NCBI GenBank assembly: GCA_903870545.1
Contig: CAIQDI010000004.1
Location: 27,848 to 91,847, forward strand
DNA length: 64,000 nucleotides
Origin: an uncultured Pseudomonadota bacterium
GTDB lineage: Bacteria; Pseudomonadota; Gammaproteobacteria; Methylococcales; Methylomonadaceae
Reading direction: 5' to 3'
The position numbers and the translations under genes were made by a program. Position 1 is the stretch's first letter, and each line of letters opens with the position of its first letter. The notes beneath the pieces were generated by a model. It did no database searches, was not told the DNA's origin, and was given only the letters and a program-made list of their open reading frames with translations. This document shows positions 6,021-51,691 of the stretch, piece after piece.

Positions 6021-6575
6021 TTACGCCGCAGCCGCTTGTTTAAAATCCGTCAGCGCGGTATGAAACCATTCCGCGTGTTGACGTTCAGAATCCACCACGC
6101 GCTGATAAACGTCGCTGGTTTTATCATCATTTGCGGCTTTGGCTTGGTCTCTAAAACGGGGATAAATGTCTAAGTATTCACGCTCTTCCACGCGAATGGC
6201 GACGGTTAATGCTTTTTCAATCACCGCTTGCGGATTGGTTTTAATTAACTCGTCGCAATTTTCACGAATCGTTTGCAATGCGTCAATGGCGCGTTGCGTA
6301 TCTTCGCCACGTTCCGGCACACCAATATCCTCATACAAATCGCGCAACCAAACAGAATGTAATTTTTCTTCGCCCGCCACTTTGCGAAACAAGGTCGCTA
6401 ATTTGGGATGACCGGCTTTTGCCGCCCAACGCGCAAACTCCGGATACATTATTTGCGCTTCATATTCTTCTACGTCGATAAACGAAGCCGCCGTTTCGCC
6501 TCTGTCTTCTGATTGTTGGGCAGCGGCAAAGCATTGAAAAATCATCTCTTCGGTAATTTCTGTGTTATTTAGCAT
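6021..6575 (-). CDS. Ferritin-like / rubrerythrin-family diiron four-helix-bundle protein
   Basis: The ligand pattern E...ExxH...E...ExxH is visible (VEEYEAQ, EEKLH, VEEREY, SERQH). ATG at 6575 is preceded by GGAGA, whereas the ORF-track start at 6587 is a TTG. Confidence 0.7.
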   Translation of the reverse strand: MLNNTEITEEMIFQCFAAAQQSEDRGETAASFIDVEEYEAQIMYPEFARWAAKAGHPKLATLFRKVAGEEKLHSVWLRDLYEDIGVPERGEDTQRAIDALQTIRENCDELIKTNPQAVIEKALTVAIRVEEREYLDIYPRFRDQAKAANDDKTSDVYQRVVDSERQHAEWFHTALTDFKQAAAA

Positions 6576-6605
6576 GGTATTCTCCAAAAAATAAATTGAA
6601 CTCGA

Positions 6606-6824
6606 TTAAATATAATCGCGCACATAATTATGCGCGAAGTGATGAACAGGTACTTGATGCTGTTGAAATTCTTGATAAGCTCTGTCTACGTCCATCGGTG
6701 TAACGTGTGCGTAAATGCCAAATCCGGTTTGTTTAAGAAACTCATCGCTCAATGCGTCCATGAATTGTTGCCACGAGGAATCATCGTTTTTATCGTATTC
6801 AATGGTCATTTTTTTAGCTCTCAT
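6606..6824 (-). CDS. Small hypothetical protein (72 aa, or 67 aa from the ATG at 6809)
   Basis: Open frame between the CZB gene and the diiron gene on the same strand. I recognise no motif. Confidence 0.4.
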   Translation of the reverse strand: MRAKKMTIEYDKNDDSSWQQFMDALSDEFLKQTGFGIYAHVTPMDVDRAYQEFQQHQVPVHHFAHNYVRDYI

Positions 6825-6866
6825 GGTTGTTTAAAAATTAAATCAAATAAGAATACTGCAAACTGT

Positions 6867-7349
6867 TCACAGGTAATTCCTAATCTTTGTTTTCCACGAA
6901 TTATTGACAGGAACCGTTGGATTCTCAGCGATTACACGCGGATTGACATCGCTTTCCAATTTAAAAATTGTCGCAACGACTTCGGCAGATGAGCGATTAA
7001 AAGGAGAGTCGCCATCTCTTAGTAACAGCGCGGCTTCATCATATTTTTTAGCATTGATGACTTCTGCTACTTTTCCGGCAACAAGGTGAAAGGCGGCGTG
7101 TCTTTCCACACAGTCACGATAGCTTTCCCGCCGACCAATTTGTGAAACTGTATCGCTGCCGTATAACCATTTGCCAAGAACACAGCAGTCATCCTTAGAA
7201 ATTACCGTCACATCGAGTGTTGCTTTATTCCTGATGGCATCATGCAATTTTAATTTCCAACGGATGTGACTGGCTATCAATATGTCGCTATCGCTGGTCA
7301 TGAATTCACCGTCTACACGATGATTAGCTTTTAAATTTATAATTTTCAT
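6867..7349 (-). CDS. CZB (chemoreceptor zinc-binding) domain protein
   Basis: The CZB signature is present: HIRWKLKL ... CVLGKWLY ... HAAFH. GAGGAG lies 9 nt upstream of the ATG at 7349, and the track start at 7358 is a TTG with no spacing to the RBS. Confidence 0.7.
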   Translation of the reverse strand: MKIINLKANHRVDGEFMTSDSDILIASHIRWKLKLHDAIRNKATLDVTVISKDDCCVLGKWLYGSDTVSQIGRRESYRDCVERHAAFHLVAGKVAEVINAKKYDEAALLLRDGDSPFNRSSAEVVATIFKLESDVNPRVIAENPTVPVNNSWKTKIRNYL

Positions 7350-7364
7350 TGGTGGCAACTCCTC

Positions 7365-10300
7365 TTAAAAATTAAATACTTTTGCTTTTGTCGCTTGAAT
7401 CCTAAATTGCTCTTGCCACGATGTCCCTGACAATTTTTCTGCTAACGCTACTGCAAGATGTTGGGGTTCTACGCCCATACTTTTGTTTCGTCCTAAACCC
7501 TGAATGCAAGAAGGACAGTTGGTGAGAATGGTCGCTTTTCCTTCTTCTGGCATGGCTTCTGCCAACGAATCCCGTTTACGATGCAACATCGCCGCAGAAA
7601 TATCGGGACGGGACAACGACAATGTTCCCGCTTCAGAACAACAATCTGGCACTTTTTGAACATCACCAAATCCACCCAACTCATTCAGCACATCGAGAGC
7701 TTTGCCGCCCAACGAATCATGACACGGCGTGTGATACAAATAAGGCGTACTGTTATTTTCTGCACTGTCCAAATTCAAACCGCGTTCCAGCGCGTAATGG
7801 CTAATGTCAATCAACCGCCCGCCGAATAATTTGGCGGCTTCCATTTCATGCAAACCTTCACGGCACGTTCCACACGTCACCACGCAACCATCAAAATCTA
7901 AATGCGTGAACATATTCCGAATTTGATTGAGCAAAATGGTCACGCGCAACCCGTTCCGAGAATGCAATTCGCTCAAGCCATTGGCGTGCGCGGGGAATCC
8001 ACAACATAAAAAAGGCGGCGGTAAAATTACCCGCGTTTTTAACTTGGATAACAGATGAATTGTTGCCATCGAAATGGTCGATACCATGCGTTCAGAACCA
8101 CAACCTGGAAAATAAAAAATGGTGCGTTCGGCTTCTTCTTCAGGCTCAAACACCAACACTTCATCATCTTTGCAACTGGGCAACCAATCACGCAGCGTTT
8201 TTGCTGGCACTGACGGCATCGGCGAGCTTAATAATTGCAAGTGATAATGTTTCGATTGTCCTTTTTTAGGCTGAAGCGGCGCGGCGATTTTATGCGCCAA
8301 CTGTTGCCCCGCAAGCCCCGCTTGAAGCACGACGGCACGAAAAACTTTATTGAATGTCGGCGAACCGCTATTCAAATAACGCAACGTCATTTTTGTGGCA
8401 ACGGCGGTGTGCTTATAACCCCAATCTGCCAAAATTTGCCGTTCCAACACAGACACTTCACCCGAATCTATATCGACGGGGCAAGGTTTCGCGCATTTAT
8501 GGCACGTCGTGCAATGGTCGGCGACCTCTTCCAGATATTTTAATAATTCAAATTTCGTCGAATATTCGCGCTGTGCATCGAATAATAAGGCTTCGATAAT
8601 CGCGCCAATCGCCAAATTTTTATTACGCGGATGATAAAACAAGCCGCCCGCTGGATAAAAAACACAGCAGTCTGGCTTACATTTTCCACAACGAACACAA
8701 TTGGAAATTTTGCTCGCCAACTCTTCCAATTGTCCGTGTTGCAGAATGCGTGCTTCTAATCCCAACAGATTAAACGACGGCGTAAAAATGTGTTCAAGCG
8801 CGTTAAAGTCTTCTAACTTTCCAGGATTCATCAGCCCAGACGGATCAACTTCGCTCCGATAAACACGCAGAGCTTCTACCGTTTGTTTGTCCAAATACTT
8901 GAGTTTCGTTACGCCAATGCCATGTTCGCCCGACACCACACCGCCCAATTCCACGACTTTAAACATCACCTCATCAATCACGTCGTTTGAGCGTTTGAGC
9001 ATATCTCTATCGTTAGACAACACCGGCAAATTCACATGAACATTCCCGTCGCCGGCGTGCATGTGCGTGGCTAACACAATGCGGCGGTCTCGGATTTGTT
9101 GATGCGTCAGTTCGACGGCGGCGATAATTTTCGGAAAGCCACGCGCCAATTCGGTGAAGGCTTGTTTAAATTCGATGAGAATCGACAAATTACGCAGCGT
9201 TTTATAATCCGCCGTGGAAAGCTCGTTTTTAGCCGTTTCATAAAGTTCCAGCGCGAGACTGGTTTTGTCGGCAAATGAATCGTTACCTTCTTCAACAGGC
9301 GGATGACGAAACAAGGTCGCGGCTTTGTCCAAAAATTTGAGTTGAGCATAACGCTCTTCATCGACATTCACTTCGTCAATGTAACGCGAAAACTCCGGCA
9401 AGGCTTCCAACGGAATCACAATATCTTCGTTCATTTTGAAGGCATTGGTGCGGCGGGCAATCGCGCCAAAACGTTTACGATCCGCCCAATAACGCTCTGC
9501 CTCGGCATCGTCTTTAGCTTCAAACAGTTTGGTGTTTGGATATTGTTCTAAAATAGTACGAATTTTATGAATGCCATTTTGCGTTTGCTCGGCAGAATGC
9601 CCGGCAATATCAATCAGCAAAACCGCTTTTGGCGTTTGTAACAAACTGGATTTCACCTGATAATCGATGGCTCGCACATATTCGTCATCAAAATGTTCCA
9701 ACGCAATCAGCGTATCTTCGCCTTTATCGGGGAATGGAAAAGTTTTGGACAGCGCGATAATCACGCGGCTGGCTTCTTCCATATTTTGTCCGAAAAATTC
9801 TAAACAAACGGTGCGTGTGGCTTCATATTTTGGATAAAGTATAAATTTTGCGGAAGTGATAATGCCGTCGGTGCCTTCTTTTTGTAATCCTGGCACGCCG
9901 CCCAATGCTTTATTGGTGATGTCTTTCCATAAACCTTTTTTTCTAATTTCGCTGCCTTTTAAAACGATTTGTTTCAGAAATTCGCCGCTTTGATCAGCGA
10001 TTTCAAACGTTACGTCATCGTCTGGCAAAATTTTTCGTAATTGATGGTCGGTTCGGCGGACTTCCCAACGCTTTCCACCTGGCATCGCCATTTGCCACGA
10101 AATAAGATTATCAATACACGTTCCCCACCGCACCGCGCCTTTGCCGCCGGCATTTTCAGAAATGTTGCCGCCAATGGTGGAAGCCCACGCACTGGTTGGA
10201 TCGGTGGCAAATACCAAACCACGATGACTGGCGTATTGGTGTGCTTTTTCAGTAATTACGCCGACTTCAAGTTCAAGCACTTGCGCGACTTCTGTGTGAC

Positions 10301-17934: not shown

Positions 17935-18327
17935 ATGAAAGTTTTTAAAAATAACAAATTACAGCGACTAGCTTCATTTGTATTAGTTCCGATTGTTTTA
18001 TCAGCGTGCGTCAAAGGAGCAACAACTAGGCTTGACCCGCAATCCTATAACTTAATTCAAGAAGGTACGATTTTACCTCAGAGTGGTTTAGCATTTTCAG
18101 TCTGTTTGTTAGATGGTTTTGATGGATTCAGAGGTTTTAGTAGGCAAACTCGCCGCACCAACTCTTATCGAGTGGATTTAATGGGAATGGGCGGTAGCTC
18201 TGTGATGCTTAGTGCCGATATTTTTGATGACGGTAAAATTAAGTTTTTTGAGAGTACATCTTCCATATTAAGTACCACAGAACCACAGGATGTTTTTAAA
18301 TCCTGCCTATCGAAGTATGCGAAATAA
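17935..18327 (+). CDS. Hypothetical lipoprotein
   Basis: 130-aa ORF with an AAGGAAA RBS. It has a signal peptide with lipobox LSAC (MKVFKNNKLQRLASFVLVPIVLSAC). Confidence 0.6.
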   Translation: MKVFKNNKLQRLASFVLVPIVLSACVKGATTRLDPQSYNLIQEGTILPQSGLAFSVCLLDGFDGFRGFSRQTRRTNSYRVDLMGMGGSSVMLSADIFDDGKIKFFESTSSILSTTEPQDVFKSCLSKYAK

Positions 18328-18360: not shown

Positions 18361-18398
18361 TCAAAAAGCCCCAATTCGCATAACAGCAAATCGGGGCT
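18361..18398 (-). terminator. Terminator of the NTase/nuclease-like operon
   Basis: On the minus strand, AAGCCCCGAUU-loop-AAUUGGGGCUU is followed by UUUUGA, 15 nt after the stop at 18413. Confidence 0.5.
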
Positions 18399-18412
18399 TG
18401 TATAGATGTTGA

Positions 18413-19165
18413 TTAAATTTCTAACTGTTTCGCATAAGCATTCCAATCAATAGCTGGTACTGTACCTAAAGATTGTAATTTTTGAAGAAGCCTAAACAAA
18501 AAAAACATCAATGTATTTTGATTTGAACGTACAGTCAAAATTTTGTCAAAAGTATCAAACGATGCACCGCTCACAGCTAAACCACAATCCAGTTTTTGAA
18601 TTTCAGGCAATTTGTCATGAGTTTCTTTAAACGATTTTCCAAAATCATCAGCCCACTCAATATTGGTTGCTATAATTCCAGCGATTATTGAAAAAAGTAG
18701 TTTTGGTGGATATTCACCTCCTGCATGAGCAATTGGTACGCTTGTCCTGTTTAGTTTTCTAACAGATTCGGCTTTTTCACCTGCATATTTTAAATAGTTT
18801 TTGTCTATGTGAGGTTTTACTTCAAACACAGCATAAACTGATTCGACTGGAATGAAGCGGTGGTTTTGTTGGTCTAATAACGTTGGTGTGTACTGATTAT
18901 CAAAGATAACAACATCTATTTGATCGCTAGTTTTACCATCAGAGTCAATTATTATTCCAGTATCAACAGCATAGCGATCTGGCATATATCGTTTAATTAT
19001 TTCTATAAAGTGTTTCTCATTAACGTCACCCATAGTTCCATTGTGTGTTACTGACACACTCGACATTTCTAACTGTGTTTTCAACATTGCTTGTTGCATG
19101 GCAAAAGACTGTTGTAAAAAAGTTTTTCCGTCAATTTCAGACATCACTTTTGCTTTGCAACTCAT
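18413..19165 (-). CDS. PD-(D/E)xK nuclease-fold protein (DUF6602-like as I recall the family); putative effector of the upstream nucleotidyltransferase
   Basis: 250-aa ORF. The core is GDVNEKHFIEIIKRYMPDRYAVDTGIIIDSDGKTSDQIDVVIFDNQ ... FIPVESVYAVFEVKP, which gives the D ... D(V/I)xxxD ... E-x-K arrangement of restriction-endonuclease-fold enzymes. It has an ATGA overlap with the upstream gene. Confidence 0.6.
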   Translation of the reverse strand: MSCKAKVMSEIDGKTFLQQSFAMQQAMLKTQLEMSSVSVTHNGTMGDVNEKHFIEIIKRYMPDRYAVDTGIIIDSDGKTSDQIDVVIFDNQYTPTLLDQQNHRFIPVESVYAVFEVKPHIDKNYLKYAGEKAESVRKLNRTSVPIAHAGGEYPPKLLFSIIAGIIATNIEWADDFGKSFKETHDKLPEIQKLDCGLAVSGASFDTFDKILTVRSNQNTLMFFLFRLLQKLQSLGTVPAIDWNAYAKQLEI

Positions 19166-19911
19166 GTGACAATGTCCTTCCAGTATTGCTGACTTGCACT
19201 ATTTTTTGCAGCATTGGCGAGTTTTCTTTTTTCAGATGTACCAATCTGGTCTGATATGCAGTTATTAGTGTTAGCGGGATCATAATAAACTTTACTTTCA
19301 AGAGAATCAGCTATGAAGTTCAGAATCTTGAGAAAATTAACGTCAGTAGCACCGATTTTGCAGTTGTAAAGAGCTTCAATAACGACTAACTCCAGATAAA
19401 ACGATGGAAAATCCAACTCATTTAAGTTTCTCCATATTTTTGTGAGTTTAATTTCATCTAATCTATTAGATTTTGAAACTTCCAAAATATGGATGTCGAT
19501 GTTTGTTTTTGTCCACGAATTTTTCTTACTCACATACAGGCTGTGATCGTTACCATACTGACTTTGTCTTCTTCCAGGTACAAGATCAATTTGGTCAGAG
19601 TTGTAATCAATACCGATAGATACGTTTTGCTTTCTTGCTTTAAAGCCTTTGTTCGTCATATAAGAGAAAAGGGACGAGTATAAGTCACAGAGTGTGTCGT
19701 TACTTGTTGATGTTATCGAAATGAACAAATCCACATCTGTTCCGCTGGAAACAGCGGTACCTTTTTTTGATGAGCCAGATATTTTTATATCAACTAAACC
19801 ATTTGCCCATTCTTCAATGTAAGGTGAAAAAAATTTATGATATTGAACCGCCTTATTTGGATTAACAGCATATTTTCGCAGTACCTCATTTACATATTCT
19901 AAACCTGTCAT
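19162..19911 (-). CDS. Minimal Pol-beta-fold nucleotidyltransferase, SMODS/CD-NTase/OAS-like
   Basis: 249-aa ORF with ISGSSKKGTAVSSGTDVDLFISI (G[SG]xxxGT ... DxD) and a third acidic residue in SDQIDLVPGRR. The helical C-terminal half resembles OAS/CD-NTase substrate-binding lobes. Confidence 0.7.
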   Translation of the reverse strand: MTGLEYVNEVLRKYAVNPNKAVQYHKFFSPYIEEWANGLVDIKISGSSKKGTAVSSGTDVDLFISITSTSNDTLCDLYSSLFSYMTNKGFKARKQNVSIGIDYNSDQIDLVPGRRQSQYGNDHSLYVSKKNSWTKTNIDIHILEVSKSNRLDEIKLTKIWRNLNELDFPSFYLELVVIEALYNCKIGATDVNFLKILNFIADSLESKVYYDPANTNNCISDQIGTSEKRKLANAAKNSASQQYWKDIVT

Positions 19912-19931
19912 ATAAACCCCAAATCAAACGT

Positions 19932-19969
19932 AAAAAAGCCCCGATTGCTTTTTAAAAACAACCAAGGCT
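19932..19969 (-). terminator. groESL terminator
   Basis: On the minus strand, AGCCUUGGUUG-loop-CAAUCGGGGCU forms 11 bp including 3 G-U pairs. It is followed by UUUUUU, about 45 nt after the groEL stop. Confidence 0.5.
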
Positions 19970-20012
19970 TTTATGAAAAGTAAAAAGCCAAAAAAAGCGT
20001 TAAGCCAGCAAA

Positions 20013-21671
<1,659 letters not shown>

Positions 21672-21700
21672 TTAAATTGAAATGTTTGTTTGAAAAAGGA

Positions 21701-21988
21701 TTAACCTAAAACCGCTAAAATGTCGTCTTCGCGCATCACGATTACGTCTTCGCCGTCGATTTTAACTTCGCTGCCAGAATACTTGCCGAATAACACTTTG
21801 TCGCCGATTTTGACGTGCATCGGGTGAATTGTTCCGTTGTCTAAAACTTTGCCTGCGCCAATTGCCAACACTTCACCTTGGCTTGGTTTTTCTGCGGCTG
21901 AACCGGGTAAAACGATGCCGCCTGATGTGACGGTTTCTTCTGCAACACGTTTAACGATAACGCGGTCATGCAATGGGGTAATTTTCAT
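21701..21988 (-). CDS. groES: Co-chaperonin GroES
   Basis: 95-aa [34 protein letters not shown], located directly upstream of groEL. Confidence 0.98.
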
Positions 21989-22896: not shown

Positions 22897-24305
<1,409 letters not shown>

Positions 24306-24306
<1 letters not shown>

Positions 24307-24716
24307 TGAATAATTTTAACCTGCATATTCTTTCCAGTAATCAACAGCAATCGTTTTCGAATGTGTGTTCGTTTGTCGGTATCGATGCCAGCGGTTCGTT
24401 TGGCATTCAAGCGAATCACGCGCATTTCATGACGGTTTTGGCGGAAGGTTTGTCACGTTTTCGGTTCGATAATGAAACGTGGCATTATTTGGCGTTACCG
24501 AGTGGCTTGGCTTCCTTTCGCGCGAATCAACTCACTATTAGCACGCGGTATTTTTTAATCGATACCGATTTTGACCGTCTCAGCGATTTATTAGAACAAC
24601 AAGCCGCGAAAGAACAAGAAAGTCGGCAAGCCATTTGTGATAGTTTGCAGCAAATAGAATGGGCGATGCTCAAAAAAATTAGAAATTTAAAACATAATTT
24701 ACAGTGGGAATCATGA
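24306..24716 (+). CDS. atpC: ATP synthase F1 epsilon subunit (N-ATPase type)
   Basis: ATG at 24306 overlaps the atpD stop (TGATG). The product is about 136 aa starting MNNFNLHILSS, with a beta-sandwich followed by a helical tail. The assignment rests mainly on position. Confidence 0.7.
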
Positions 24717-24979
24717 TGCTATTGAAATTAAAAAACCAAATTGAACAGCAAGTGAAACGCATCAAAAAAGCGCAAAACCAGCCTGCCACCTTGTTGTCAC
24801 AAACCGTTTATGTCGGTACGTTGGGATTAGTAATGGTGTTGCCGATTGTTGCCGGTGCGTATTTAGGTCATTGGTTAGACAGTTTAAGTGCCGGCTATTC
24901 CGCGCGTTGGACATTGAGTTTATTGTTTACCGGTGTTGTCGTGGGAATGTTCAACGTTTATTCGCTGATTAAAAATTGA
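24704..24979 (+). CDS. atpQ: AtpQ/AtpZ-like small membrane subunit of N-ATPase (ATPase_gene1 family)
   Basis: 91-aa ORF with two TM helices and the pattern PIVAGAYLGHWLDS ... RWTLSLLFTGVVVGMFNVY. It sits between epsilon and subunit a. Confidence 0.6.
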   Translation: MGIMMLLKLKNQIEQQVKRIKKAQNQPATLLSQTVYVGTLGLVMVLPIVAGAYLGHWLDSLSAGYSARWTLSLLFTGVVVGMFNVYSLIKN

Positions 24980-24990
24980 GACTATCATTT

Positions 24991-25659
24991 ATGGAGCATG
25001 AATTTCCGTTCAATTTAGACAGCATCCACATTAACGGTTCGGTCATGACGACGTGGGCGATTATGCTCATGCTGGCATTGGTAGCGTGGCTTTCGACGCG
25101 CCGTTTGTCATTGTTACCGACACCGTTACAAACGTTAATGGAAAGTATCGTGACGATAATGGATGAATCGATTCTCGCCGTCGCACCCGAAAACGGTCGC
25201 CGTATTTTGCCCTTGATTGCGACGTTATGGATTTTTCTCACCGTGGCGAATCTCGTCAGTTTAATTCCTACGCTGCATTCACCCACTCGTGATTTATCCG
25301 TTACCTCTGCGCTGGCGATATTGGTATTTTTATCGGTGCATTGGTTTGGTATCAAAACCCAGGGCATTAAAAAACACCTGCATCATTACATAACGCCCAG
25401 CCCCATTTTGCTGCCGTTTCACATCATCAGCGAATTCACCCGCACGTTAGCGTTGGCGATTCGGTTGTTTGGCAATATGATGAGCTTAGAAACCGCCGCC
25501 ATGTTGGTTTTATTGGTGGCGGGATTTTTAGCTCCCATTCCCATTTTAATGCTGCATATTATCGAAGCTCTTGTGCAAGCCTATATTTTTGGCACGTTGG
25601 CGTTAATTTATTTAGCCAGCGCAATTCAAACTCAACAACATCAACCCCCACTGGAGTAA
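24991..25659 (+). CDS. atpB: ATP synthase Fo subunit a (N-ATPase type)
   Basis: Polytopic membrane ORF with the conserved stator Arg region LALAIRLFGNMMS. The alternative start at 24976 overlaps the atpQ stop. Confidence 0.8.
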   Translation: MEHEFPFNLDSIHINGSVMTTWAIMLMLALVAWLSTRRLSLLPTPLQTLMESIVTIMDESILAVAPENGRRILPLIATLWIFLTVANLVSLIPTLHSPTRDLSVTSALAILVFLSVHWFGIKTQGIKKHLHHYITPSPILLPFHIISEFTRTLALAIRLFGNMMSLETAAMLVLLVAGFLAPIPILMLHIIEALVQAYIFGTLALIYLASAIQTQQHQPPLE

Positions 25660-25662
25660 TTT

Positions 25663-25929
25663 ATGAGTGATATATCCCTAATTGTTTTCGGTTCAAGTAT
25701 TGTCTCGCTGATTACGATTGCTGTAGGAGTCATGCTGCCCGCATTAGCAATGGGTAAAGCCATTAGCACCGCACTGGAAGCCTTATCGAGACAGCCCGAA
25801 TCCGAACAATCCATCATGCGAACGTTGTTTATTGGTTTGGCGATGATTGAATCGCTCGCCATTTATTGTTTAGTGATCGTGCTAATTGTGCTGTTTAAAA
25901 ATCCGTTGCTTGAATACATTGTGAAATAA
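25663..25929 (+). CDS. atpE: ATP synthase Fo subunit c (N-ATPase type)
   Basis: 88-aa helical hairpin with the loop SRQPE. Helix 2 is LAMIESLAIYCLV, carrying the carboxylate Glu followed by Ser, with Tyr at +5. Confidence 0.85.
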   Translation: MSDISLIVFGSSIVSLITIAVGVMLPALAMGKAISTALEALSRQPESEQSIMRTLFIGLAMIESLAIYCLVIVLIVLFKNPLLEYIVK

Positions 25930-25931
25930 CT

Positions 25932-26681
25932 ATGTCTATGGAATTTGATGTTTCGACGTTTATTTTGGAAATGCTCAATTTTCTGGTTTTAGTTTGGATT
26001 TTGCAGCGATTATTTTATAAACCCTTGCTCGCCACCATTGCCCAACGCAAACTGCATATTGAAGACACCTTGGCGAAAGCGCAAAGCGTGCAACAAGAAG
26101 CTGAAACGCAGCGTGAATTGTATGAAAATCGGCAAAAATTGTGGGAACAAGAAAAACAAATTGCGCTGGTAGCATTGCATCAAGACCTTGACACAGAACG
26201 TCGGGCGCAATTCGACCTGCTGCAAAAAGAGTTGCAACAAGAACGCCAACGAAACCAAGAAAATCTCAGTCGTCAACAACATGAATTTGAACAACACGCG
26301 CAACAACTCGCGTTGAAAAATGCGGCTCAATTTGCTCATATTCTGGTGCAACACACCGCGAGTGCTGAATTGGAAACGAAATTGGTGCAATTTTTGTTGG
26401 AGCAATTAAAAACCTTGCCCGACACGTTAAATGCGAGTTTTAAACGCCTTCAAAATCCGCCCGTCGTCAACATCAGCAGCGCGTTTCCGCTGAATGCGAT
26501 TTATCGACAACAATTGGCGGACTGTTTTTCGACGTTGATAGTGTTGCCGCTCACGTTTCATTATGTCGAAGATGCCACGCTGCTGGCGGGTTTACGAATT
26601 GAGCTGGGTTCGTGGGTGTTGCAAGCTAATTTACAACACGAACTCAGCGGTTTTGCGGAGTTGGCGCATGATTTTGAATAA
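25932..26681 (+). CDS. atpF: ATP synthase Fo subunit b (long, N-ATPase type)
   Basis: 249-aa ORF with one N-terminal TM helix ([19 protein letters not shown]) and a long charged coiled coil. It sits between c and alpha. Confidence 0.7.
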
Positions 26682-28134
26682 TTCATTTGATTTATTGGAG
26701 TTACAAACCGATTGGTTAAATCGTTATAAACCGGCGTTGGGCGTGGAAGAACAAGGCACAACGGTTTCGGTGGGCGACGGTATTGCGTGGATTAACGGTT
26801 TACCGTCGGCAGCGATTGAAGACATTTTGATTTTTGCGGAAGGCAGTCGCGGCATGGTGTTTGATTTAAGTTGCGACCGCATTGGCGTAATTTTACTTTA
26901 TGAAACACCTTCGCTCACCGCCGGAACTACCGTGCGCCCTGCCCGTCATCCGTTGAGCATACCAGTGGGCGAGGCATTTTTAGGGCGCATCATTGATCCA
27001 CTCGGTTTGCCGTTGGACGGTGACGCGCCACCGGAGGCTTCGACCCGCGAAAAATTGGAAAAAAATTCTCCCGTGATTACCGCTCGCGATTTTGTTAATG
27101 AACCGCTTTATACCGGCATCAAAATTATCGACGCGCTTATTCCAATTGGCAAAGGACAACGCCAGCTGATTATTGGTGATGAAGGGTTAGGACGCAGTTC
27201 AATTGCGCTCGATACCGTTATCAATCAAAAAGATAAAAATGTGATTTGCATTGTGGTGTTGATTGGGCAAAAACGTTCGACCGTCGTCAGCACAATTGAA
27301 ACGCTCAAACAACATGGCGCATTAGCGTACACCGTTTGCGTGGTTGCCGAAGCTAATGCGTTACCCGGTTTGCAATATATCGCGCCGTTTGCGGGGTGTG
27401 CTTTGGCAGAGTATTGGATGGCAAAAGGACGCGACACGCTGATTGTTTACGATGATTTGTCCACGCACGCCCGAACGTATCGGGAATTGTCATTGTTATT
27501 GCGTCGTCCACCCGGTCGTGAAGCGTATCCGGGTGATATTTTCTTTATTCATTCACGTTTGTTAGAGCGTTCCACTCGTTACAACCCCGAACACGGCGGC
27601 GGCACGATGACGGCATTGCCGATTGTCGAAACGCAACAAGGCGAAATTGCCGCGTACATTCCGACGAATTTAATTTCGATTACCGACGGGCAGATTTATT
27701 TAGACAGCAATTTATTTACGTCGGGGTTTCGTCCGGCGATTGATATTGCAAAATCGGTGTCACGCATTGGCGGCAAAGCGCAACACCCCGCGATTCGCAA
27801 TCAAGCTGGACAAATGAAACTGGATTATTTGCAGTTTTTAGAACTCGAAATGTTCACCCGTTTTGGTCAACGTTTGGAAGCGTCGATGGAACAACGTATT
27901 CAACGTGGGCGATTGCTGCGTGAATTACTGAAACAAGACCGGTTCACGCCGTTATCGAGTTTGTGTCAACTGGCGTGGCTGGTGGCTTTCAACAGTGATT
28001 GTCTGAATGCGTTGGAATTCTCTGACCTTGAACAGGCTTTAGAACGACTCGCGCAAGGCGTGAAAAATACCGATTTAACGCTCGACAGTTCGCATGAACA
28101 ATGGCAACACGCCGTCACAAATTGGTTAGCCTAA
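26668..28134 (+). CDS. atpA: ATP synthase F1 alpha subunit (N-ATPase type)
   Basis: ATG at 26668 overlaps the atpF stop. Motifs present are GDEGLGRSS (a degenerate Walker A, as in alpha subunits), [18 protein letters not shown] and ITDGQIYL. Confidence 0.9.
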
Positions 28135-28135
28135 A

Positions 28136-28927
28136 ATGAGCCGAAGCCGCGATTTATACCAACACATTCACCAACTCGAAGATATTCGCGGCATTCTCAA
28201 TGCCATGAAAAATCTCGCGTTGATGGCGGTGCATAAACTTACGCAGTTACAGCTGTTGCAATCGCAAATAGTCGCGCACGTTGAAAGCAATTCGGCGCGT
28301 TTTCTGGCGGCGTATCCGCATTTTGTCAGCGACGATAACGGTCAAATCGTTTATCTGGTGCTGGGTTCAGAACGCGGATTTTGTGGCGATTTTAATGAAA
28401 AGTTGCTGGACAGCCTGAAAAATAAACCGTATGCCGGCATTATTGCGGTCGGCAATCGGTTAATTGCGCGAGCTGAAGCGTACGATTATCAGCTAATTGC
28501 ACGCTTGAACGGCATGAATGTCGTGGAAGACGTGCCGCTATTGCTCGAACAATTGATGCAATGCCTTAACAATTTAGACGCTGATTGCACGTTGATGGCG
28601 GTTTATCACGACTTGCACAGCAATCAAATTCAACACCGACAAATTTTGCCACTGCCGCGACCGCCCAAAACCGAAGAAGAAGCACCGCTGTTGAATGTGT
28701 CGCCTGAACTTTTTTTTGTAAAAATGCTGGAACAGGTTCTGCTGCCGATATTGCACGACATTATTTATGTTTCGTCGCTGGCTGAAAATCGTCGCCGACT
28801 CCAGCATTTGGAAGGCGCGGTACAACATCTCGACGCACAAACCCAAAAACTACATCACAAATCCCAAATTTATCGCCAAGAAGAAATCACCGAAGAACTC
28901 GAAGTCATTTTGTTAAACGCCGAATAA
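28136..28927 (+). CDS. atpG: ATP synthase F1 gamma subunit (short, N-ATPase type)
   Basis: 263-aa ORF starting 1 nt after the atpA stop. It has the N-terminal motif IRGILNAMKNLALMAV and the C-terminal helix YRQEEITEELEVIL. Confidence 0.8.
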   Translation: MSRSRDLYQHIHQLEDIRGILNAMKNLALMAVHKLTQLQLLQSQIVAHVESNSARFLAAYPHFVSDDNGQIVYLVLGSERGFCGDFNEKLLDSLKNKPYAGIIAVGNRLIARAEAYDYQLIARLNGMNVVEDVPLLLEQLMQCLNNLDADCTLMAVYHDLHSNQIQHRQILPLPRPPKTEEEAPLLNVSPELFFVKMLEQVLLPILHDIIYVSSLAENRRRLQHLEGAVQHLDAQTQKLHHKSQIYRQEEITEELEVILLNAE

Positions 28928-45709: not shown

Positions 45710-47017
<1,308 letters not shown>

Positions 47018-47051
47018 TTAGATTTAAAATTTGTATGTTTTGATTTTGTTT

Positions 47052-47381
47052 TTAATAGACTAATTGCTCAAGTGAAATACCTAAAGCCTCTGTCGCTTTT
47101 TGACGCATTTTTTTTGATGGACGTTTCATGGTTTCTAGTTTCGTATATTCCACTAACGTAATCCCCATTTGTTGTGCAATTTCAGTTTGAGTATGTCTTA
47201 GATATTCGCGCCACGCTTGCAACATCGTTGAACCACCAACCACTAAACTCACAACTTCATGCGGCACATACCCTTCTTTTATCGTCGGACGGGGTTGAAA
47301 AAAATCATCGTAAGGAATCACGACAAAAGTTGGTTTGCCATTGTTGCCTAAAATAGTTTGATAATTAGTAAGTGTGTTCAT
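47052..47381 (-). CDS. higA: HigA-like antitoxin (HTH-XRE C-terminal domain)
   Basis: About 109 aa, with the HTH segment HTQTEIAQQMGITLVEYTKLE. It overlaps the upstream RelE-fold toxin gene. The toxin-first order is the HigBA arrangement. Confidence 0.7.
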   Translation of the reverse strand: MNTLTNYQTILGNNGKPTFVVIPYDDFFQPRPTIKEGYVPHEVVSLVVGGSTMLQAWREYLRHTQTEIAQQMGITLVEYTKLETMKRPSKKMRQKATEALGISLEQLVY

Positions 47382-47622
47382 CACGTTTTTTCACCTCTTC
47401 AATTTTAATAATTCTGATTTCACCATCGAATTCAAAAAATACACGATAATTACCAACACGCAAACGGTAGCTATATTTGTGGTCGGTCAATTTTTTAACG
47501 CTAAGACAATCAGGAAATACAGGCAATTTGTTTTCGACATTATCACGAATTGTTATTTGTGCTGATTTGTCTAGCTTCATCAATTGTCGAGTAGCTCTTA
47601 ATTTCCAAATAATTCGATTCAT
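47365..47622 (-). CDS. higB: RelE/ParE-superfamily toxin (HigB-like position)
   Basis: 85-aa ORF with YRLRVGNYRVFFEFDGEIRIIKIEEVKKRDE, the typical RelE/ParE C-terminal sheet. Its start overlaps the stop of the upstream 222-aa gene by 1 nt. Confidence 0.8.
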   Translation of the reverse strand: MNRIIWKLRATRQLMKLDKSAQITIRDNVENKLPVFPDCLSVKKLTDHKYSYRLRVGNYRVFFEFDGEIRIIKIEEVKKRDEHTY

Positions 47623-48290
47623 TATTTCTCAAAACCAACCAATTTCTCACTTGAGCTTTCCAGCAACGCCGTCGTTTCCACCGACAACCCAATCAACTGA
47701 AATTGCTCAAGGTGTCTTTGAATGAAATTCTGTCCGCTCGTCGTGATTAAATTGATGTCTTTGCTAATAAGTTGCATATCGTCATTCAATTGCACAATAA
47801 AGCGCGTTGCGTTATCAATAATTCCCGCTAATTTTTTATCAACTGCGTTAATCATGATATTTCGGCTCGCTTCACTCATATTCGGATTTCCTTCAATCCG
47901 TTCAAGTTGGTCTTGCGCTTGTTGCAACGCTCTATCTTGCAATTCGTTATACCGTTCCGTTTTTTCGTGAATCAAATCGTAGGCTTTTCGTTGCAATTCA
48001 ATTCGCATTGAACCAATTGCCTGAACCGCTTCAACGTTAATTCGGGTTAATTCGATTTGATACGCCATCATCGAATCAGAAACGGCTTTCATTCGTTCAA
48101 ATTCTTTATCTTTTTTGAGCTGCTCAATTTCTGTGATGATTCGGACAATTTCAGTTTCACGGGTCATGTGCCTTTCAAGTTCTCGGTCTTTAGCGGCTTC
48201 TTGACGCTTATGCTCCGAACGTTTAGACCCATTACTTAATAATCCACCACCCGCCGATAAAATACTGCCTAGTCCACCAAAAAATCCCAT
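47622..48290 (-). CDS. Hypothetical protein C (222 aa): Gly-zipper-like N-terminus + long coiled coil
   Basis: A long ORF in AT-rich DNA. The N-terminus is MGFFGGLGSILSAGGGLL, followed by a charged heptad-rich region. It starts 3 nt after gene B. Confidence 0.6.
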   Translation of the reverse strand: MGFFGGLGSILSAGGGLLSNGSKRSEHKRQEAAKDRELERHMTRETEIVRIITEIEQLKKDKEFERMKAVSDSMMAYQIELTRINVEAVQAIGSMRIELQRKAYDLIHEKTERYNELQDRALQQAQDQLERIEGNPNMSEASRNIMINAVDKKLAGIIDNATRFIVQLNDDMQLISKDINLITTSGQNFIQRHLEQFQLIGLSVETTALLESSSEKLVGFEK

Positions 48291-48293
48291 GAT

Positions 48294-48773
48294 TTATATT
48301 TCCATCTCGCTTAATTTTTTAATTTCTCGGTCGAATATCACGCGATTCTTGTCTAACGTAATTTCTAACGTATTTCGCATCAACTCGGATTTTTCGCCCG
48401 CTTTAATAAAATGATTCAAAGCCGTTTCCATGTCTTTAACTAACGAAATCCCCAAATTTAATTGTCCCGCATGGTCTGTTTTTATAATCGACCATTTGCC
48501 CAACAATTTAAGAAAAACCGTCGCAAAAATCGCTTCGGTTTCTTTTTGTTTATCAGTGAAAAACGTTGCTTCGTGACTAAACAATTGCCAATGACTGCTC
48601 AACCACGTCATAAAGTATTTTTCACGCGCCAAATTCAACAACGCAGGACTGTCTTCATATTTAAAAGACGGCGCGTAAATCTCAGGTTTATGGTCTAAAA
48701 AATCTTGCACCATTTCAGCCCTGCCTTGTTTTAACACTTGCAACGCGGCAAATGTTTCTTTTTTATTCAGCAT
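48294..48773 (-). CDS. Hypothetical protein B (159 aa)
   Basis: ATG at 48773 overlaps the end of gene A by 11 nt. I recognise no motif. Confidence 0.6.
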   Translation of the reverse strand: MLNKKETFAALQVLKQGRAEMVQDFLDHKPEIYAPSFKYEDSPALLNLAREKYFMTWLSSHWQLFSHEATFFTDKQKETEAIFATVFLKLLGKWSIIKTDHAGQLNLGISLVKDMETALNHFIKAGEKSELMRNTLEITLDKNRVIFDREIKKLSEMEI

Positions 48774-49332
48774 CAACTACTTTTGAAGAATTTGCACCGA
48801 TGTCATCCAGTTTCGCTTTTGAAACTTCTTGTTTGGCTTCTTCTTTGAAAATCCCCAACACTTGAACAACGTGTGTTTTCGCCAAATCACTACTCAAATC
48901 GATGCTTTTTGTGTAGCTTGCAACCAATTCTTCAATCCATTGAGAAGCCACTTTTTTATCAATTTCTTGAGCTTGCAACGTTTGCACAACTTCGCGCAAA
49001 GTTTGGGTGAAAAATTGCGAACGTTCACGGCGCAAATCTTCCTGCAAAGAAGATGCGAATTTGATTTCTTCTTTGTAGTCCTTAATCAATTCGAGATAGT
49101 GTTTTTCATATTGATAAAGTAAATCAAGTTTCGATTTTGTTTCAGATAATTGGTCTGGTATTACATTTATTTTTTGTAATCGTGAAACATAACCTAACAA
49201 ACTGGTTTGTGATTCATCAGTCAACGAACTATCCATATTCGCTACTGTCATCGTTTTTCTGACCTCGGTGAGCAATTCTTCTGGTGATATACCTAAAATC
49301 GTTGCAAATTCTTTTACTGTTCTAACTGCCAT
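48763..49332 (-). CDS. Hypothetical protein A (189 aa): short N-terminal helix-turn-helix/IF2_N-like motif + coiled coil
   Basis: The product begins MAVRTVKEFATILGISPEELLTEV, and the rest is a charged helical region. Its RBS and start are part of a 34-bp repeat shared with the antitoxin gene at 49837. Confidence 0.6.
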   Translation of the reverse strand: MAVRTVKEFATILGISPEELLTEVRKTMTVANMDSSLTDESQTSLLGYVSRLQKINVIPDQLSETKSKLDLLYQYEKHYLELIKDYKEEIKFASSLQEDLRRERSQFFTQTLREVVQTLQAQEIDKKVASQWIEELVASYTKSIDLSSDLAKTHVVQVLGIFKEEAKQEVSKAKLDDIGANSSKVVDAE

Positions 49333-49868: not shown

Positions 49869-49872
49869 ATAT

Positions 49873-50151
49873 TTACGCACATAATTTTAAATCGTGAAAA
49901 TGCTCTAATTCGTTGTGATACAAGTCCGCAATTGGAAAGCATAAATCATAATCACCCCAAATCAATTCACCGTATTCAAGACGAAATGTTGAAAATTTTT
50001 CTAAATTTAACCATTCACGAATATCAGGATGGCGTGAACGTGACAAAAACGGTTTGAAGTTAATCACTTGTTCGCTTTCGTCGTCAAATTGGAGAAAAAT
50101 TTGGTAATCGCCAATTTGTTTCGCCGTTGTGATGTTGATAACGTCAGGCAT
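49873..50151 (-). CDS. DUF2442 domain protein
   Basis: 92-aa ORF with ITTAKQIGDYQIFLQFDDESEQVINFKPFL, the DUF2442 pattern as I recall it. It is paired with a DUF4160 gene. Confidence 0.75.
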   Translation of the reverse strand: MPDVINITTAKQIGDYQIFLQFDDESEQVINFKPFLSRSRHPDIREWLNLEKFSTFRLEYGELIWGDYDLCFPIADLYHNELEHFHDLKLCA

Positions 50152-50456
50152 TATTTCAACCTCCGAGTGATATTTTCAGCAGTAACGTGTTTGTGCAATA
50201 CGAAAAAATCAATCCATTTTTGAACGATTTCATCTGTTTTAGCCGTCACAATTTCTTTGAAATAACGCATTTCATTCGGCTGTAACGGTTGTCGTCCTGT
50301 TACATCTACGAAGTTAATTTCAATCACGTTACCTTCAACAATAATAAATTCAGCTCGCGCTTCACGTCCTTGGCTTTTACCGTGAACATGAATCGGTTCA
50401 TGTTCGTTAGCGTAAAACATGACAATTAAGCCGAAATACTCATAAAGTTTTGGCAT
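50151..50456 (-). CDS. DUF4160 domain protein
   Basis: 101-aa ORF starting MPKLYEYFGLIVMFYANEHEPIHVHGK, the DUF4160 signature. It starts 5 nt after the hisZ stop. Confidence 0.75.
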   Translation of the reverse strand: MPKLYEYFGLIVMFYANEHEPIHVHGKSQGREARAEFIIVEGNVIEINFVDVTGRQPLQPNEMRYFKEIVTAKTDEIVQKWIDFFVLHKHVTAENITRRLK

Positions 50457-50461
50457 GATGT

Positions 50462-51691
50462 TTATTTCAAAATTGATTCAACAACCCAAACATCATTCAA
50501 ATTTTTCACCAAAACCGCTGTGCAATTTAACTCAATCGCGCCACCGATTTGATTCGGTAATTGTTGCACCACAGCACGATTTTGAGCGCGGCAATCACGA
50601 ATCGTTTCACACAAATTCACATCGTCAACATACGGCGCAAAAATCAATTCGCGTTCGGGTTGTTCAATGCCATTTTGTTTATTGAGAGCCGTTAAAACTT
50701 TCAAATCGGCACTGAAACCTGTTGCGGGACGTTCACGTCCGAAAATTGCACCGATATTGTCATAACGTCCGCCGCGTGCGATTTCTTTACCGATTGATGG
50801 CACAAATGCCGCAAACACAATCCCCGTGTGATAGTGATAACCGCGCAATTCGGCTAAATCAAAACTGATTGAAAGCGACGGAAAATAACGCGCCAACGCG
50901 GTTGAAATTGCATCTAAATCGTCTAACGCTTTTTGAGTATTTTCAGATTTAAATAATTCGCGGGCTTTTGCCAAAACGGTTTTATCGCCGTTCAATTCAG
51001 GCAGTTTTAACAACGCGATTTTTAAATCATTCGGCAAATTATAACTTTCGAGTAGCTCTTTTAATTCGGGACGCGCTTTGCGTTGCAAAACGTCGAATAA
51101 TTTACTTTCTTGAGCGCGTGTTAAAGCGGCTTCTTCTGCCAATGCGCGATAAATGCCAACGTGACCCAAATCTAAATGCACATTCAAAACGCCTGACATT
51201 GCCAACATTTCAAGCATCAAACGAATCACTTCTAAATCGCTTTCTTTGCCCGCGTGACCATAAAGTTCTGCGCCAATTTGCATTGGTGAACGTGACTTTT
51301 CCAGCGCATCGCCGCGCGTGTGCAAAATCGTTCCGACATAACACAAGCGCGTTGGATGGTCGTGTTTTAAATTATGAGCATCAATTCGCGCCACTTGCGG
51401 AGTCATATCGGCTCGCACACCGAGCATTTTGCCGCTGATTTGGTCGGTTAATTTAAAGGTTTGCGAATCTAAATTGTGTCCCGAACCGGTCAACAATGAA
51501 TCTAAAAAATCGATAAATGGCGGCACAACCAACTGATAACCCCAGTTCGCAAAGGTTTCGAGCAATTTTGCGCGAAGAATTTCCAAACGTTGTGCTTCGT
51601 CAGGAAGCATTTCATCTATGCCGTCAGGTAATAACCACGCATCCGAAATGACTTCATGATTATGCGGCAGGTTAAAAAATTTGTTTTGCAT
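50462..51691 (-). CDS. hisZ: ATP phosphoribosyltransferase regulatory subunit HisZ
   Basis: 409-aa HisRS-like paralogue without an anticodon domain, containing LPDGIDEMLPDEAQ, RADMTPQVAR and GGRYD. It sits downstream of hflKC. Confidence 0.9.
   Translation of the reverse strand: MQNKFFNLPHNHEVISDAWLLPDGIDEMLPDEAQRLEILRAKLLETFANWGYQLVVPPFIDFLDSLLTGSGHNLDSQTFKLTDQISGKMLGVRADMTPQVARIDAHNLKHDHPTRLCYVGTILHTRGDALEKSRSPMQIGAELYGHAGKESDLEVIRLMLEMLAMSGVLNVHLDLGHVGIYRALAEEAALTRAQESKLFDVLQRKARPELKELLESYNLPNDLKIALLKLPELNGDKTVLAKARELFKSENTQKALDDLDAISTALARYFPSLSISFDLAELRGYHYHTGIVFAAFVPSIGKEIARGGRYDNIGAIFGRERPATGFSADLKVLTALNKQNGIEQPERELIFAPYVDDVNLCETIRDCRAQNRAVVQQLPNQIGGAIELNCTAVLVKNLNDVWVVESILK

What the first reader, a model, noticed from the sequence alone, without database searches (positions are those of the whole stretch)
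18413..19911. Two-gene module: minimal SMODS/CD-NTase-like nucleotidyltransferase + PD-(D/E)xK nuclease-like protein (candidate signalling defence system)
The genes overlap by ATGA and share one terminator.

- Gene 1 (249 aa) has the Pol-beta NTase triad context GSSKKGT...DVDLF...IDLVP seen in SMODS/CD-NTase/OAS enzymes. It is shorter than typical CBASS cyclases, which I recall as roughly 300 aa or more.
- Gene 2 (250 aa) has a restriction-endonuclease-like core (SDQIDVVIFD ... ESVYAVFEVKP). It has no recognisable SAVED, STING, TIR or TM sensor domain. I recall its N-terminal half as DUF6602-like.

The architecture is that of a type I CBASS (cyclase plus effector) but with non-canonical, minimal parts. 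It may be an undescribed nucleotide-signalling or nucleotidyl-modifying anti-phage pair, located in an AT-rich islet.
Basis: partly seen in the sequence, partly recalled or inferred. Interest (0 to 1): 0.75.

Follow-up and report, generated by a model that had tools for sequence, protein, structure and literature searches.

The report
Type I CBASS: CdnC03 cyclase plus NucC
The two overlapping genes are an ordinary two-gene CBASS anti-phage system, made of a small clade C03 cGAS-like cyclase and the cyclic-tri-AMP-activated DNA endonuclease NucC; this kind is already catalogued and a relative has been tested, so it is a new copy of a known system and not an undescribed one.

Summary
Two co-oriented minus-strand genes (19162-19911, 249 aa; 18413-19165, 250 aa) overlap by ATGA. 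They end at one strong terminator and sit in a 34.6% GC islet against 44.2% for the window.

- **Gene 1** matches a PADLOC CBASS cyclase model end to end (E 8.7e-85). Its model (pLDDT 93) best matches P. aeruginosa CdnD (PaCdnD) and E. coli CdnC (EcCdnC). It is 49% identical to the CD-NTase clade C03 reference, against 22-34% for C01, C02 and D05. About 250 aa is the normal length of this large family.
- **Gene 2** is NucC. It is 59% identical to the solved Serratia NucC and has the IDx30ExK site, the cA3-pocket residues and the gate-loop His/Tyr.
- **Pairing:** NucC lies directly downstream of the cyclase in 66 of 74 informative related loci. No third gene is conserved.
- **Literature:** C03 cyclases are described as mainly NucC-associated, and an XpCdnC03-NucC operon is listed among phage-restricting type I CBASS.

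Likely mechanism: infection activates the cyclase, it makes cA3, NucC hexamerises, DNA is degraded and infection aborts. Interest is low.

The parts
19162..19911 (-). CD-NTase (CBASS oligonucleotide cyclase), clade C03, 249 aa. Active-site residues are G46-S47, D59-x-D61 and D109.
   Evidence: - PADLOC Cyclase PDLC00803, E 8.7e-85, covering 252 of 253 profile positions.
- NCBIfam CBASS_cyclase_a/b, E about 1e-12, but below the curated cutoff.
- AF2 model with pLDDT 93.2.
- Foldseek best hits: PaCdnD 6p82 (E 1e-12, TMq 0.81) and EcCdnC 6p80.
- 49% identity and 141 bits to the CD-NTase017_C03 reference fragment, against 51 bits or less for C02, C01 and D05.
- G46, S47, D59, D61 and D109 are invariant in 37 homologs.
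18413..19165 (-). NucC effector, a cA3-activated restriction-endonuclease-fold DNase of 250 aa. Active site I83-D84-x30-E115-x-K117; cA3 pocket R64, Y92, T235; gate loop H147 and Y152.
   Evidence: - PADLOC Effector 'Endonuclease (NucC)' PDLC00745, E 5.7e-97.
- Pfam DUF6602, E 2.4e-33.
- PDB sequence hits: Serratia NucC 7zgv E 2.4e-93 (59% identity) and E. coli MS115-1 NucC 6p7o E 1.3e-45 (39% identity).
- Residues mapped from the functional residues listed in bioRxiv 10.1101/694703 and 10.1101/2022.06.20.496707.
19162..19165 (-). ATGA stop/start overlap, consistent with translational coupling of cyclase and NucC.
   Evidence: Read directly from the sequence. Relatives show the same 4-nt overlap or a short gap.
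18366..18399 (-). Intrinsic terminator of the two-gene operon. A 14-bp GC-rich stem is followed by UUUUU. It is placed to act bidirectionally with the convergent gene 17935..18327(+).
   Evidence: RNA fold dG -25 kcal/mol, z -6.5, with 0 of 200 shuffles as stable.
19934..19972 (-). groEL terminator, 22 nt upstream of the cyclase ATG. No sigma-70-like promoter was found between groEL and the cyclase.
   Evidence: Terminator scan and fold (dG -20.4, z -3.9). The promoter scan lists no site in 19911-20013 on the minus strand.

Best explanation
This is a type I (two-gene) CBASS anti-phage abortive-infection system. The proposed pathway has four steps.

1. The clade C03 CD-NTase is activated during phage infection by an unknown cue.
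2. It cyclises ATP into 3'3'3'-cyclic tri-AMP (cA3).
3. cA3 binds the three-fold allosteric pocket of the NucC homotrimer. The gate loops close and two trimers assemble into a hexamer, which brings active sites together in pairs.
4. NucC then cuts double-stranded DNA non-specifically, destroying phage and host DNA and stopping phage spread.

**Shown here**
- The identity of both proteins and their fold.
- Intact catalytic and ligand-binding residues.
- Operon structure.
- Strong conservation of the pair as neighbours.
- Absence of accessory genes.

**Inferred from characterised homologs**
- The cA3 product.
- Trimer-to-hexamer activation.
- Abortive infection.
- The phage trigger.
For: **Cyclase**
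- Full-length match to a PADLOC CBASS cyclase model.
- The CD-NTase fold is closest to the cA3 synthases PaCdnD and EcCdnC.
- Profile hits go to EcCdnC (1.5e-9), BcCdnD 9sa4 (2.1e-10) and PaCdnD (5.8e-7), all of them cA3 makers (PMC13424991).
- The XGSX motif is SGSS. This is the S/T-G-S type of the cA3 makers, not the QGSI of cAAG makers (PMC13424991).
- Best match among clade references is C03.
- Catalytic G46, S47, D59, D61 and D109 are invariant.

**Effector**
- It is NucC.
- It has the exact IDx30ExK spacing, plus R64/Y92/T235 and H147/Y152. These are the residues whose mutation abolishes cA3-activated cleavage in E. coli NucC.

**Pairing and context**
- NucC lies directly downstream on the same strand in 66 of 74 informative loci, with cyclase identity of 43-78%.
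- Those loci come from Gamma-, Beta- and Alphaproteobacteria, Paenibacillus and metagenomes.
- Only recombinases recur nearby; there is no third conserved gene.

**Literature**
- C01 and C03 CD-NTases are 'primarily associated with NucC' and were proposed to make cAAA (10.1101/694703).
- XpCdnC03-NucC is listed among type I CBASS operons that restrict phages in E. coli (10.1101/2023.05.21.541620).
Against: - I found no biochemical product assignment for any C03 cyclase, so cA3 is inferred from the partner and from relatives.
- Gene 1 misses Pfam SMODS at default sensitivity and scores far below the NCBIfam CBASS cutoffs (49 against 200 bits). Public records therefore call it 'hypothetical' or 'nucleotidyltransferase'.
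- No promoter was recognised between the groEL terminator and gene 1, so expression here is unproven.
- A few C03 homologs are orphans without NucC (L002, L008, L080, L081).
- Activity of this particular locus is untested.
Confidence: 0.9

Rival explanations
1. The NucC here works mainly as an accessory nuclease of a type III CRISPR-Cas system elsewhere in the genome, responding to Cas10-made cA3. On this reading the adjacent NTase is unrelated or only auxiliary.
For: - The closest solved relative (59% identity) is the Serratia type III-A CRISPR accessory NucC.
- Some C03 cyclase homologs sit next to Cas10/Cmr genes in cyanobacteria.
Against: - The immediate flanks of the pair are groES/groEL and housekeeping genes, not cas genes. 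The rest of the window was not screened for cas genes or CRISPR arrays.
- The ATGA-coupled pairing with a CD-NTase is conserved in 66 of 74 loci.
- In the cyanobacterial cases it is the cyclase, not NucC, that sits next to Cmr.
Confidence: 0.04
2. The pair is a toxin-antitoxin-like or nucleotidyl-modifying module. The small Pol-beta NTase would modify or neutralise the nuclease or a target directly (MNT/HEPN-style), rather than make a diffusible cyclic oligonucleotide.
For: - The enzyme is small (249 aa).
- Pfam SMODS was not detected on this sequence.
Against: - The model has the full two-lobed CD-NTase fold. All of the top 15 structural hits are CD-NTases, not MNT-type minimal NTases.
- Many family members do hit PF18144 SMODS.
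- The NucC cA3-pocket and gate-loop residues are conserved, which only makes sense for a ligand-activated nuclease.
Confidence: 0.03
3. The cassette is a decaying or silent horizontally acquired remnant that is not expressed. It sits behind the groEL terminator and has no recognisable promoter.
For: - No sigma-70-like promoter lies between groEL and gene 1.
- The terminator ends 22 nt before the ATG.
- The low GC content indicates foreign origin.
Against: - Both ORFs are intact and of full family length.
- All catalytic and ligand-binding residues are present.
- An identical cassette in the same context was found on at least 17 contigs from several samples.
- Low basal expression is expected for abortive-infection systems.
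Confidence: 0.03

Closest known systems
XpCdnC03-NucC type I CBASS operon (Richmond-Buccola et al., bioRxiv 10.1101/2023.05.21.541620)
   Same: Same architecture of two genes, a clade C03 CD-NTase plus NucC, with no accessory genes. That operon is listed among type I CBASS operons that restrict phages in E. coli.
   Different: The window's system comes from an uncultured bacterium and is inserted downstream of groESL.
CD-NTase017 (clade C03, Sphingobium yanoikuyae; Whiteley et al. 2019 reference set, sequence fragment taken from the supplement of PMC10732462)
   Same: 49% identity over the 143 aligned core residues, without gaps. Shared motifs: SGSxxKGTA, GTDxDLFIS, DLVPGxRQS, WTKTN and FPSFYLEL.
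   Different: Only a trimmed alignment fragment could be compared, and I found no product reported for it.
E. coli MS115-1 CdnC / P. aeruginosa CdnD + HORMA + TRIP13 + NucC (type III CBASS; Ye et al. and Lau et al., bioRxiv 10.1101/694695 and 10.1101/694703)
   Same: Same effector family (NucC, 39% identity to Ec NucC) with the same catalytic, cA3-binding and gate-loop residues. The cyclase has the closest fold (TMq 0.74-0.82) and an S/T-G-S motif typical of cA3 makers.
   Different: There are no HORMA or TRIP13 regulators. The cyclase is 50-70 aa shorter and only 18-26% identical. It belongs to clade C03, not C01 or D05.
Serratia sp. ATCC 39006 type III-A CRISPR accessory NucC (PDB 7ZGV/7ZGW; bioRxiv 10.1101/2022.06.20.496707)
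   Same: Closest solved NucC, at 59% identity over 247 aligned positions, and 250 aa long like the native Serratia protein. It has the same ID-x30-ExK motif and the same R/Y/T cA3-binding residues.
   Different: The Serratia protein is signalled by Cas10, not by a CD-NTase. Its gate-loop sequence differs: here PIAHAGGEYPPK resembles E. coli NucC, whereas Serratia has VIKNIYGTAKPV.

Membership tests
CBASS type I (cyclase + effector only) | A CD-NTase/SMODS oligonucleotide cyclase gene is present. | tested here: met
   PADLOC Cyclase PDLC00803 E 8.7e-85 over the full length. Foldseek gives a CD-NTase fold.
CBASS type I (cyclase + effector only) | An adjacent, co-transcribed effector carries a cyclic-oligonucleotide-binding site. 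| tested here: met
   NucC overlaps the cyclase by ATGA. Pocket residues R64, Y92 and T235 are conserved.
CBASS type I (cyclase + effector only) | No ancillary genes: cap2/cap3 (type II), HORMA/TRIP13 (type III) or type IV genes. | tested here: met
   - The flanks are groES/groEL, a ThiF-family gene, a 130-aa protein with no Pfam or PADLOC hit, and an aminotransferase.
- No third gene is conserved across 88 related loci.
CBASS type I (cyclase + effector only) | Confers phage resistance that depends on both the cyclase and the effector. | not testable with these tools
   This needs cloning and plaque assays. It has been reported for a clade-mate operon, XpCdnC03-NucC (10.1101/2023.05.21.541620).
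CD-NTase clade C03 | Closest to the C03 reference sequence, not to other clades. | tested here: met
   BLASTP gave 141 bits and 49% identity to CD-NTase017_C03. The other clade references scored 51 (C02), 44 and 29 (C01) and 40 (D05) bits. All 37 family representatives also match C03 best. Caveat: only trimmed reference fragments were used and no tree was built.
CD-NTase clade C03 | Pol-beta NTase catalytic signature GS ... [DE]x[DE] ... D. | tested here: met
   G46-S47, D59-V-D61 and D109 are invariant in alignment A1.
CD-NTase clade C03 | Synthesises a cyclic oligonucleotide, predicted to be cA3. | not testable with these tools
   Inferred from the NucC partner, from the SGS motif and from the closest solved relatives.
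NucC (CD-NTase-associated nuclease; DUF6602) | Restriction-endonuclease-fold core with the IDx30ExK active site. | tested here: met
   I83-D84, exactly 30 residues, then E115-V-K117. Pfam DUF6602 E 2.4e-33.
NucC (CD-NTase-associated nuclease; DUF6602) | cA3-binding residues (Ec R53, Y81, T226/V227) and gate-loop latch (Ec H136, Y141). | tested here: met
   R64, Y92, T235-V236, H147 and Y152 align to these residues.
NucC (CD-NTase-associated nuclease; DUF6602) | Homotrimer that hexamerises on cA3 binding and cleaves dsDNA. | not tested
   Not modelled here. It is expected given 59% identity to the cA3-bound Serratia NucC structure 7ZGV.

The most novel reading that the evidence does not exclude
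The C03 cyclases are the shortest CD-NTases I saw, at about 250 aa with no accessory regulators. I found no reported product or activation cue for them. In this genome the cassette lies 22 nt behind the groEL terminator and has no recognisable promoter of its own. Its expression could therefore depend on read-through from the heat-shock groESL operon, which would couple CBASS dosage to the proteotoxic stress of phage infection. Alternatively, the minimal cyclase may be regulated in a way unlike the HORMA- or Cap2-controlled enzymes, for example by a metabolite or by a direct phage-protein cue.
Probability: 0.08. Interest if true: 0.4.

Novelty: new member of a known kind. Interest (0 to 1): 0.1.

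Why it matters
It matters little beyond annotation.

- The locus adds one more instance of a catalogued defence system, type I CBASS with a CdnC03 cyclase and NucC, in an uncultured bacterium.
- The practical lesson concerns annotation. Pfam and NCBIfam thresholds miss this cyclase clade, so public records label it 'hypothetical' or 'nucleotidyltransferase' and label its partner 'DUF6602'. That makes a known system look novel when read from sequence or standard annotation, whereas PADLOC models recognise both genes at once.
- The clade C03 enzymes lack a published product and structure, as far as I could find. They are a reasonable but unsurprising target for biochemistry.

Tried and rejected
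- **Pfam and NCBIfam on gene 1.** Pfam gave only a sub-threshold GH3 hit. NCBIfam gave CBASS cyclase hits far below cutoff. These are insufficient alone and were superseded by PADLOC, the structure prediction and the clade comparison.
- **Empty site.** I looked for a site without the cassette by checking contigs that carry the exact flanking proteins, the 130-aa gene and GroEL. Every contig shown also carries the cassette, so no empty site was found.
- **Genome-contig scan.** The single protein query returned only 2 loci. The metagenome scan with the alignment was needed for the neighbour statistics.
- **Phage records.** There was no tblastn match in 50,697 phage genomes. Two IMG/VR contigs carry the pair.
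- **Papers I could not open.** These were the published Cell Host Microbe version (PMC11239291) and the Lau et al. Mol Cell manuscript (PMC7036143); I used the bioRxiv versions instead. The XpCdnC03 sequence was not retrievable because no supplements are held.
- **Panoptes-like inverted logic.** I considered a constitutive cyclase whose product restrains a toxic effector. I rejected it because Panoptes uses mCpol cyclases and TM effectors, and NucC is activated, not inhibited, by cA3 (PMC13577387).
- **Rfam and tRNA scans.** Neither found anything in the window, so there is no tRNA-linked integration site.

Full report
**Observation**

The stop codon of the first overlaps the start of the second in the sequence ATGA.

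All quoted peptide motifs are present. No terminator-like site separates the genes. A strong hairpin with a U-run follows gene 2 at 18366-18399 (dG -25 kcal/mol, z = -6.5).

The segment between the two flanking terminators has 34.6% GC, against 44.2% for the whole window.

**What gene 2 is**

- Pfam finds DUF6602 at residues 36-138 (E 2.4e-33).
- PADLOC gives 'Effector: Endonuclease (NucC)' at E 5.7e-97 and 'NucC nuclease' at E 3.5e-81, both nearly full length.
- Against PDB sequences the best hits are Serratia NucC 7ZGV (E 2.4e-93), E. coli MS115-1 NucC (1.3e-45), P. aeruginosa NucC 6Q1H and Vibrio metoecus NucC.
- Identity is 59% to Serratia NucC and 39% to E. coli NucC.

Lau et al. (bioRxiv 10.1101/694703) define the functional residues of E. 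coli NucC:

- the IDx30EAK active site (D73, E104, K106);
- the cA3-contacting residues R53, Y81 and T226/V227;
- the gate-loop latch H136/Y141.

Mutating D73, R53, Y81, T226, H136 or Y141 abolishes cA3-activated cleavage. In the window protein these residues map to I83-D84, exactly 30 residues, E115-V-K117, then R64, Y92, T235-V236, H147 and Y152. All are conserved. The Serratia paper lists the equivalent R63, Y91 and T236.

Gene 2 is therefore a bona fide NucC. The absence of SAVED, STING or TIR domains is expected, because NucC binds its ligand in its own trimeric allosteric pocket.

**What gene 1 is**

Pfam finds nothing significant on this sequence, and NCBIfam's CBASS cyclase models score only about 49 bits against cutoffs of 200. 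Other evidence is decisive:

- PADLOC's Cyclase model PDLC00803 matches at E 8.7e-85 over 252 of 253 profile positions.
- The protein database holds 2918 homologs at E<=1e-3. Almost all of the 120 best are 248-254 aa long, and many carry PF18144 (SMODS).
- An AlphaFold2 model built on 37 homologs is confident (pLDDT 93.2, pTM 0.87).
- Foldseek against the PDB returns CD-NTases for all of the top 15 hits. The best are P. aeruginosa CdnD (6P82, E 1e-12, TMq 0.81) and E. coli CdnC (6P80).
- A family profile hits B. cereus CdnD (9SA4, 2.1e-10), EcCdnC (1.5e-9) and PaCdnD (5.8e-7). All three are cA3 synthases (PMC13424991).
- G46, S47, D59, D61 and D109 are invariant in the family.
- The XGSX motif is SGSS, with family consensus SGSxAKGTA as in EcCdnC SGSLAKGTA. 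This is the S/T-G-S type of the cA3 makers, not the QGSI of cAAG makers.

**Clade**

The supplement of PMC10732462 contains trimmed reference sequences from the Whiteley et al. clade set. BLASTP of gene 1 against these fragments gives:

| Reference | Clade | Bits | Identity |
|---|---|---|---|
| CD-NTase017 (Sphingobium yanoikuyae) | C03 | 141 | 49%, ungapped |
| CD-NTase016 | C02 | 51 | 34% |
| CD-NTase018 (E. coli) | C01 | 44 | 26% |
| CD-NTase023 (P. aeruginosa) | D05 | 40 | 25% |
| CD-NTase020 (Salmonella) | C01 | 29 | 22% |

All 37 family representatives also match C03 best. The 'minimal' size is thus the normal size of clade C03.

**Is the pair conserved?**

I collected 90 loci encoding homologs of the cyclase at 43-100% identity, from genomes, metagenomes and viral contigs.

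- Of 74 loci independent of the window with at least 750 nt downstream, 66 have a NucC gene directly downstream on the same strand, within 150 nt.
- Clustering all flanking ORFs found no third conserved gene. Apart from antisense shadow ORFs inside the two genes, only tyrosine recombinases (11 loci) and serine recombinases (6 loci) recur.
- Annotated examples read 'nucleotidyltransferase' followed by 'DUF6602 domain-containing protein'. They lie on a conjugative Cupriavidus plasmid and on a Paenibacillus plasmid.
- The Marinobacter psychrophilus chromosome has the same 4-nt-overlapping pair.

Both are answered in favour of a genuine two-gene system.

**Context in the window**

Upstream lie groES/groEL (20013..21988, minus strand). 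Downstream lie a convergent 130-aa ORF without family hits and an aminotransferase gene. None of the neighbouring genes is a HORMA, TRIP13, Cap2 or Cap3 gene, so the system is type I.

The groEL terminator (19934-19972) ends 22 nt before the cyclase ATG. No sigma-70-like promoter was found in the 100-nt spacer. Transcription may rely on terminator read-through or on an unrecognised promoter; this is inference only.

A 14-nt direct repeat, AAAAAGCCCC(A/G)ATT, lies at both ends of the islet (18363-18376 and 19933-19946). Together with the low GC it hints at insertion into the groEL terminator region. I could not find an empty site for comparison.

**Comparison with what is known**

- Richmond-Buccola et al. 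list 'XpCdnC03-NucC' among the type I CBASS operons that restrict phages in E. coli.
- PADLOC has carried full-length models of both proteins since at least 2023.

The system is therefore a new member of a known, experimentally exemplified kind. What remains unknown is general to type I CBASS, namely the phage cue, or specific to C03, for which I found no published product or structure.

**Mechanism and confidence**

The most likely pathway is as follows. Infection activates the C03 cyclase, which makes cA3. NucC trimers bind cA3, close their gate loops and pair into hexamers. Non-specific dsDNA cleavage follows and infection aborts.

- Shown here: protein identities, fold, intact catalytic and ligand-binding residues, operon coupling, and conserved pairing without accessories.
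- Inferred: the product, the oligomeric switch and the phenotype.

I put 0.9 on the system identity and somewhat less, about 0.8, on cA3 specifically. The rivals each get a few percent: a CRISPR-linked NucC, a non-signalling NTase module, or a silent remnant.

**Verdict**

Interest is low (0.1).

Noticed in passing
window 47000-50460: A second AT-rich islet (GC 35-39%) lies between purA (45710..47002) and a HisRS-like gene (50462..51691). All its genes are on the minus strand: an HTH_3 protein (47052..47384); three co-oriented ORFs of 222, 160 and 189 aa, of which the first two have no Pfam or PADLOC hit and the third has only a sub-threshold IF2_N Pfam match (47622..49332); and a DUF4160 protein (50151..50456). 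It is possibly another mobile or defence-type insertion.
   Followed up: partly
window 18363-18376 and 19933-19946: A 14-nt direct repeat, AAAAAGCCCC(A/G)ATT (13 of 14 identical), brackets the CBASS islet. Each copy forms one arm of a terminator hairpin. The groEL terminator looks like a degraded copy of the one after NucC. This may be an insertion scar, but no empty site was found to test it.
   Followed up: partly
window 19911-20013: No sigma-70-like promoter was detected between the groEL stop and the cyclase start. The groEL terminator ends 22 nt before the ATG, so expression of the cassette may depend on read-through from groESL.
   Followed up: no
L008 (Tolypothrix sp. NIES-4075) 2410-7822; L002 (Scytonema hofmanni) 2855-7823: C03 cyclase homologs (54-55% identity) occur without an adjacent NucC. 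In Tolypothrix (L008) the homolog sits next to Cas10/Cmr and RAMP genes, and a tyrosine integrase follows. Scytonema (L002) has the same ORF layout and its downstream ORF clusters with tyrosine recombinases, but its upstream 802-aa ORF was not annotated. This may reflect exchange between C03-type CBASS and type III CRISPR loci.
   Followed up: partly
L080 and L081, 1600-6100: In these two metagenome loci the 250-aa C03 cyclase lacks NucC. In L081 it follows directly after a canonical SMODS (351 aa) plus SAVED-domain (418 aa) pair and precedes a resolvase. L080 has the same ORF layout, but its ORFs were not scanned.
   Followed up: partly
L009-L090 (NucC genes downstream of C03 cyclases): C03 cyclases pair with two NucC subtypes: 44 are closer to the Serratia CRISPR-associated NucC and 25 are closer to E. 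coli CBASS NucC. The window's NucC is Serratia-like overall but keeps the E. coli-type H-x-G-G-x-Y gate loop, which Serratia lacks.
   Followed up: partly
L030/L031 and L073: Variant arrangements occur. In L030/L031 a 37%-identical NucC lies on the opposite strand upstream of the cyclase. In L073 about 1.4 kb separates the cyclase from NucC.
   Followed up: no
L089 (IMGVR_UViG_3300004369_000937), L090: Two IMG/VR viral contigs carry the C03 cyclase-NucC pair, so the cassette is sometimes phage- or prophage-borne. None was found in 50,697 GenBank phage genomes.
   Followed up: no
window 22918-28927: An ATP synthase operon has the gene order beta, epsilon, ATPase_gene1-like, a, c, b, then ORFs of 523 and 263 aa. 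The first six have Pfam support in the identical contig L003/L096; the last two I presume to be alpha and gamma, without annotation. This order recalls N-type ATPase operons rather than the standard atpIBEFHAGDC order.
   Followed up: no
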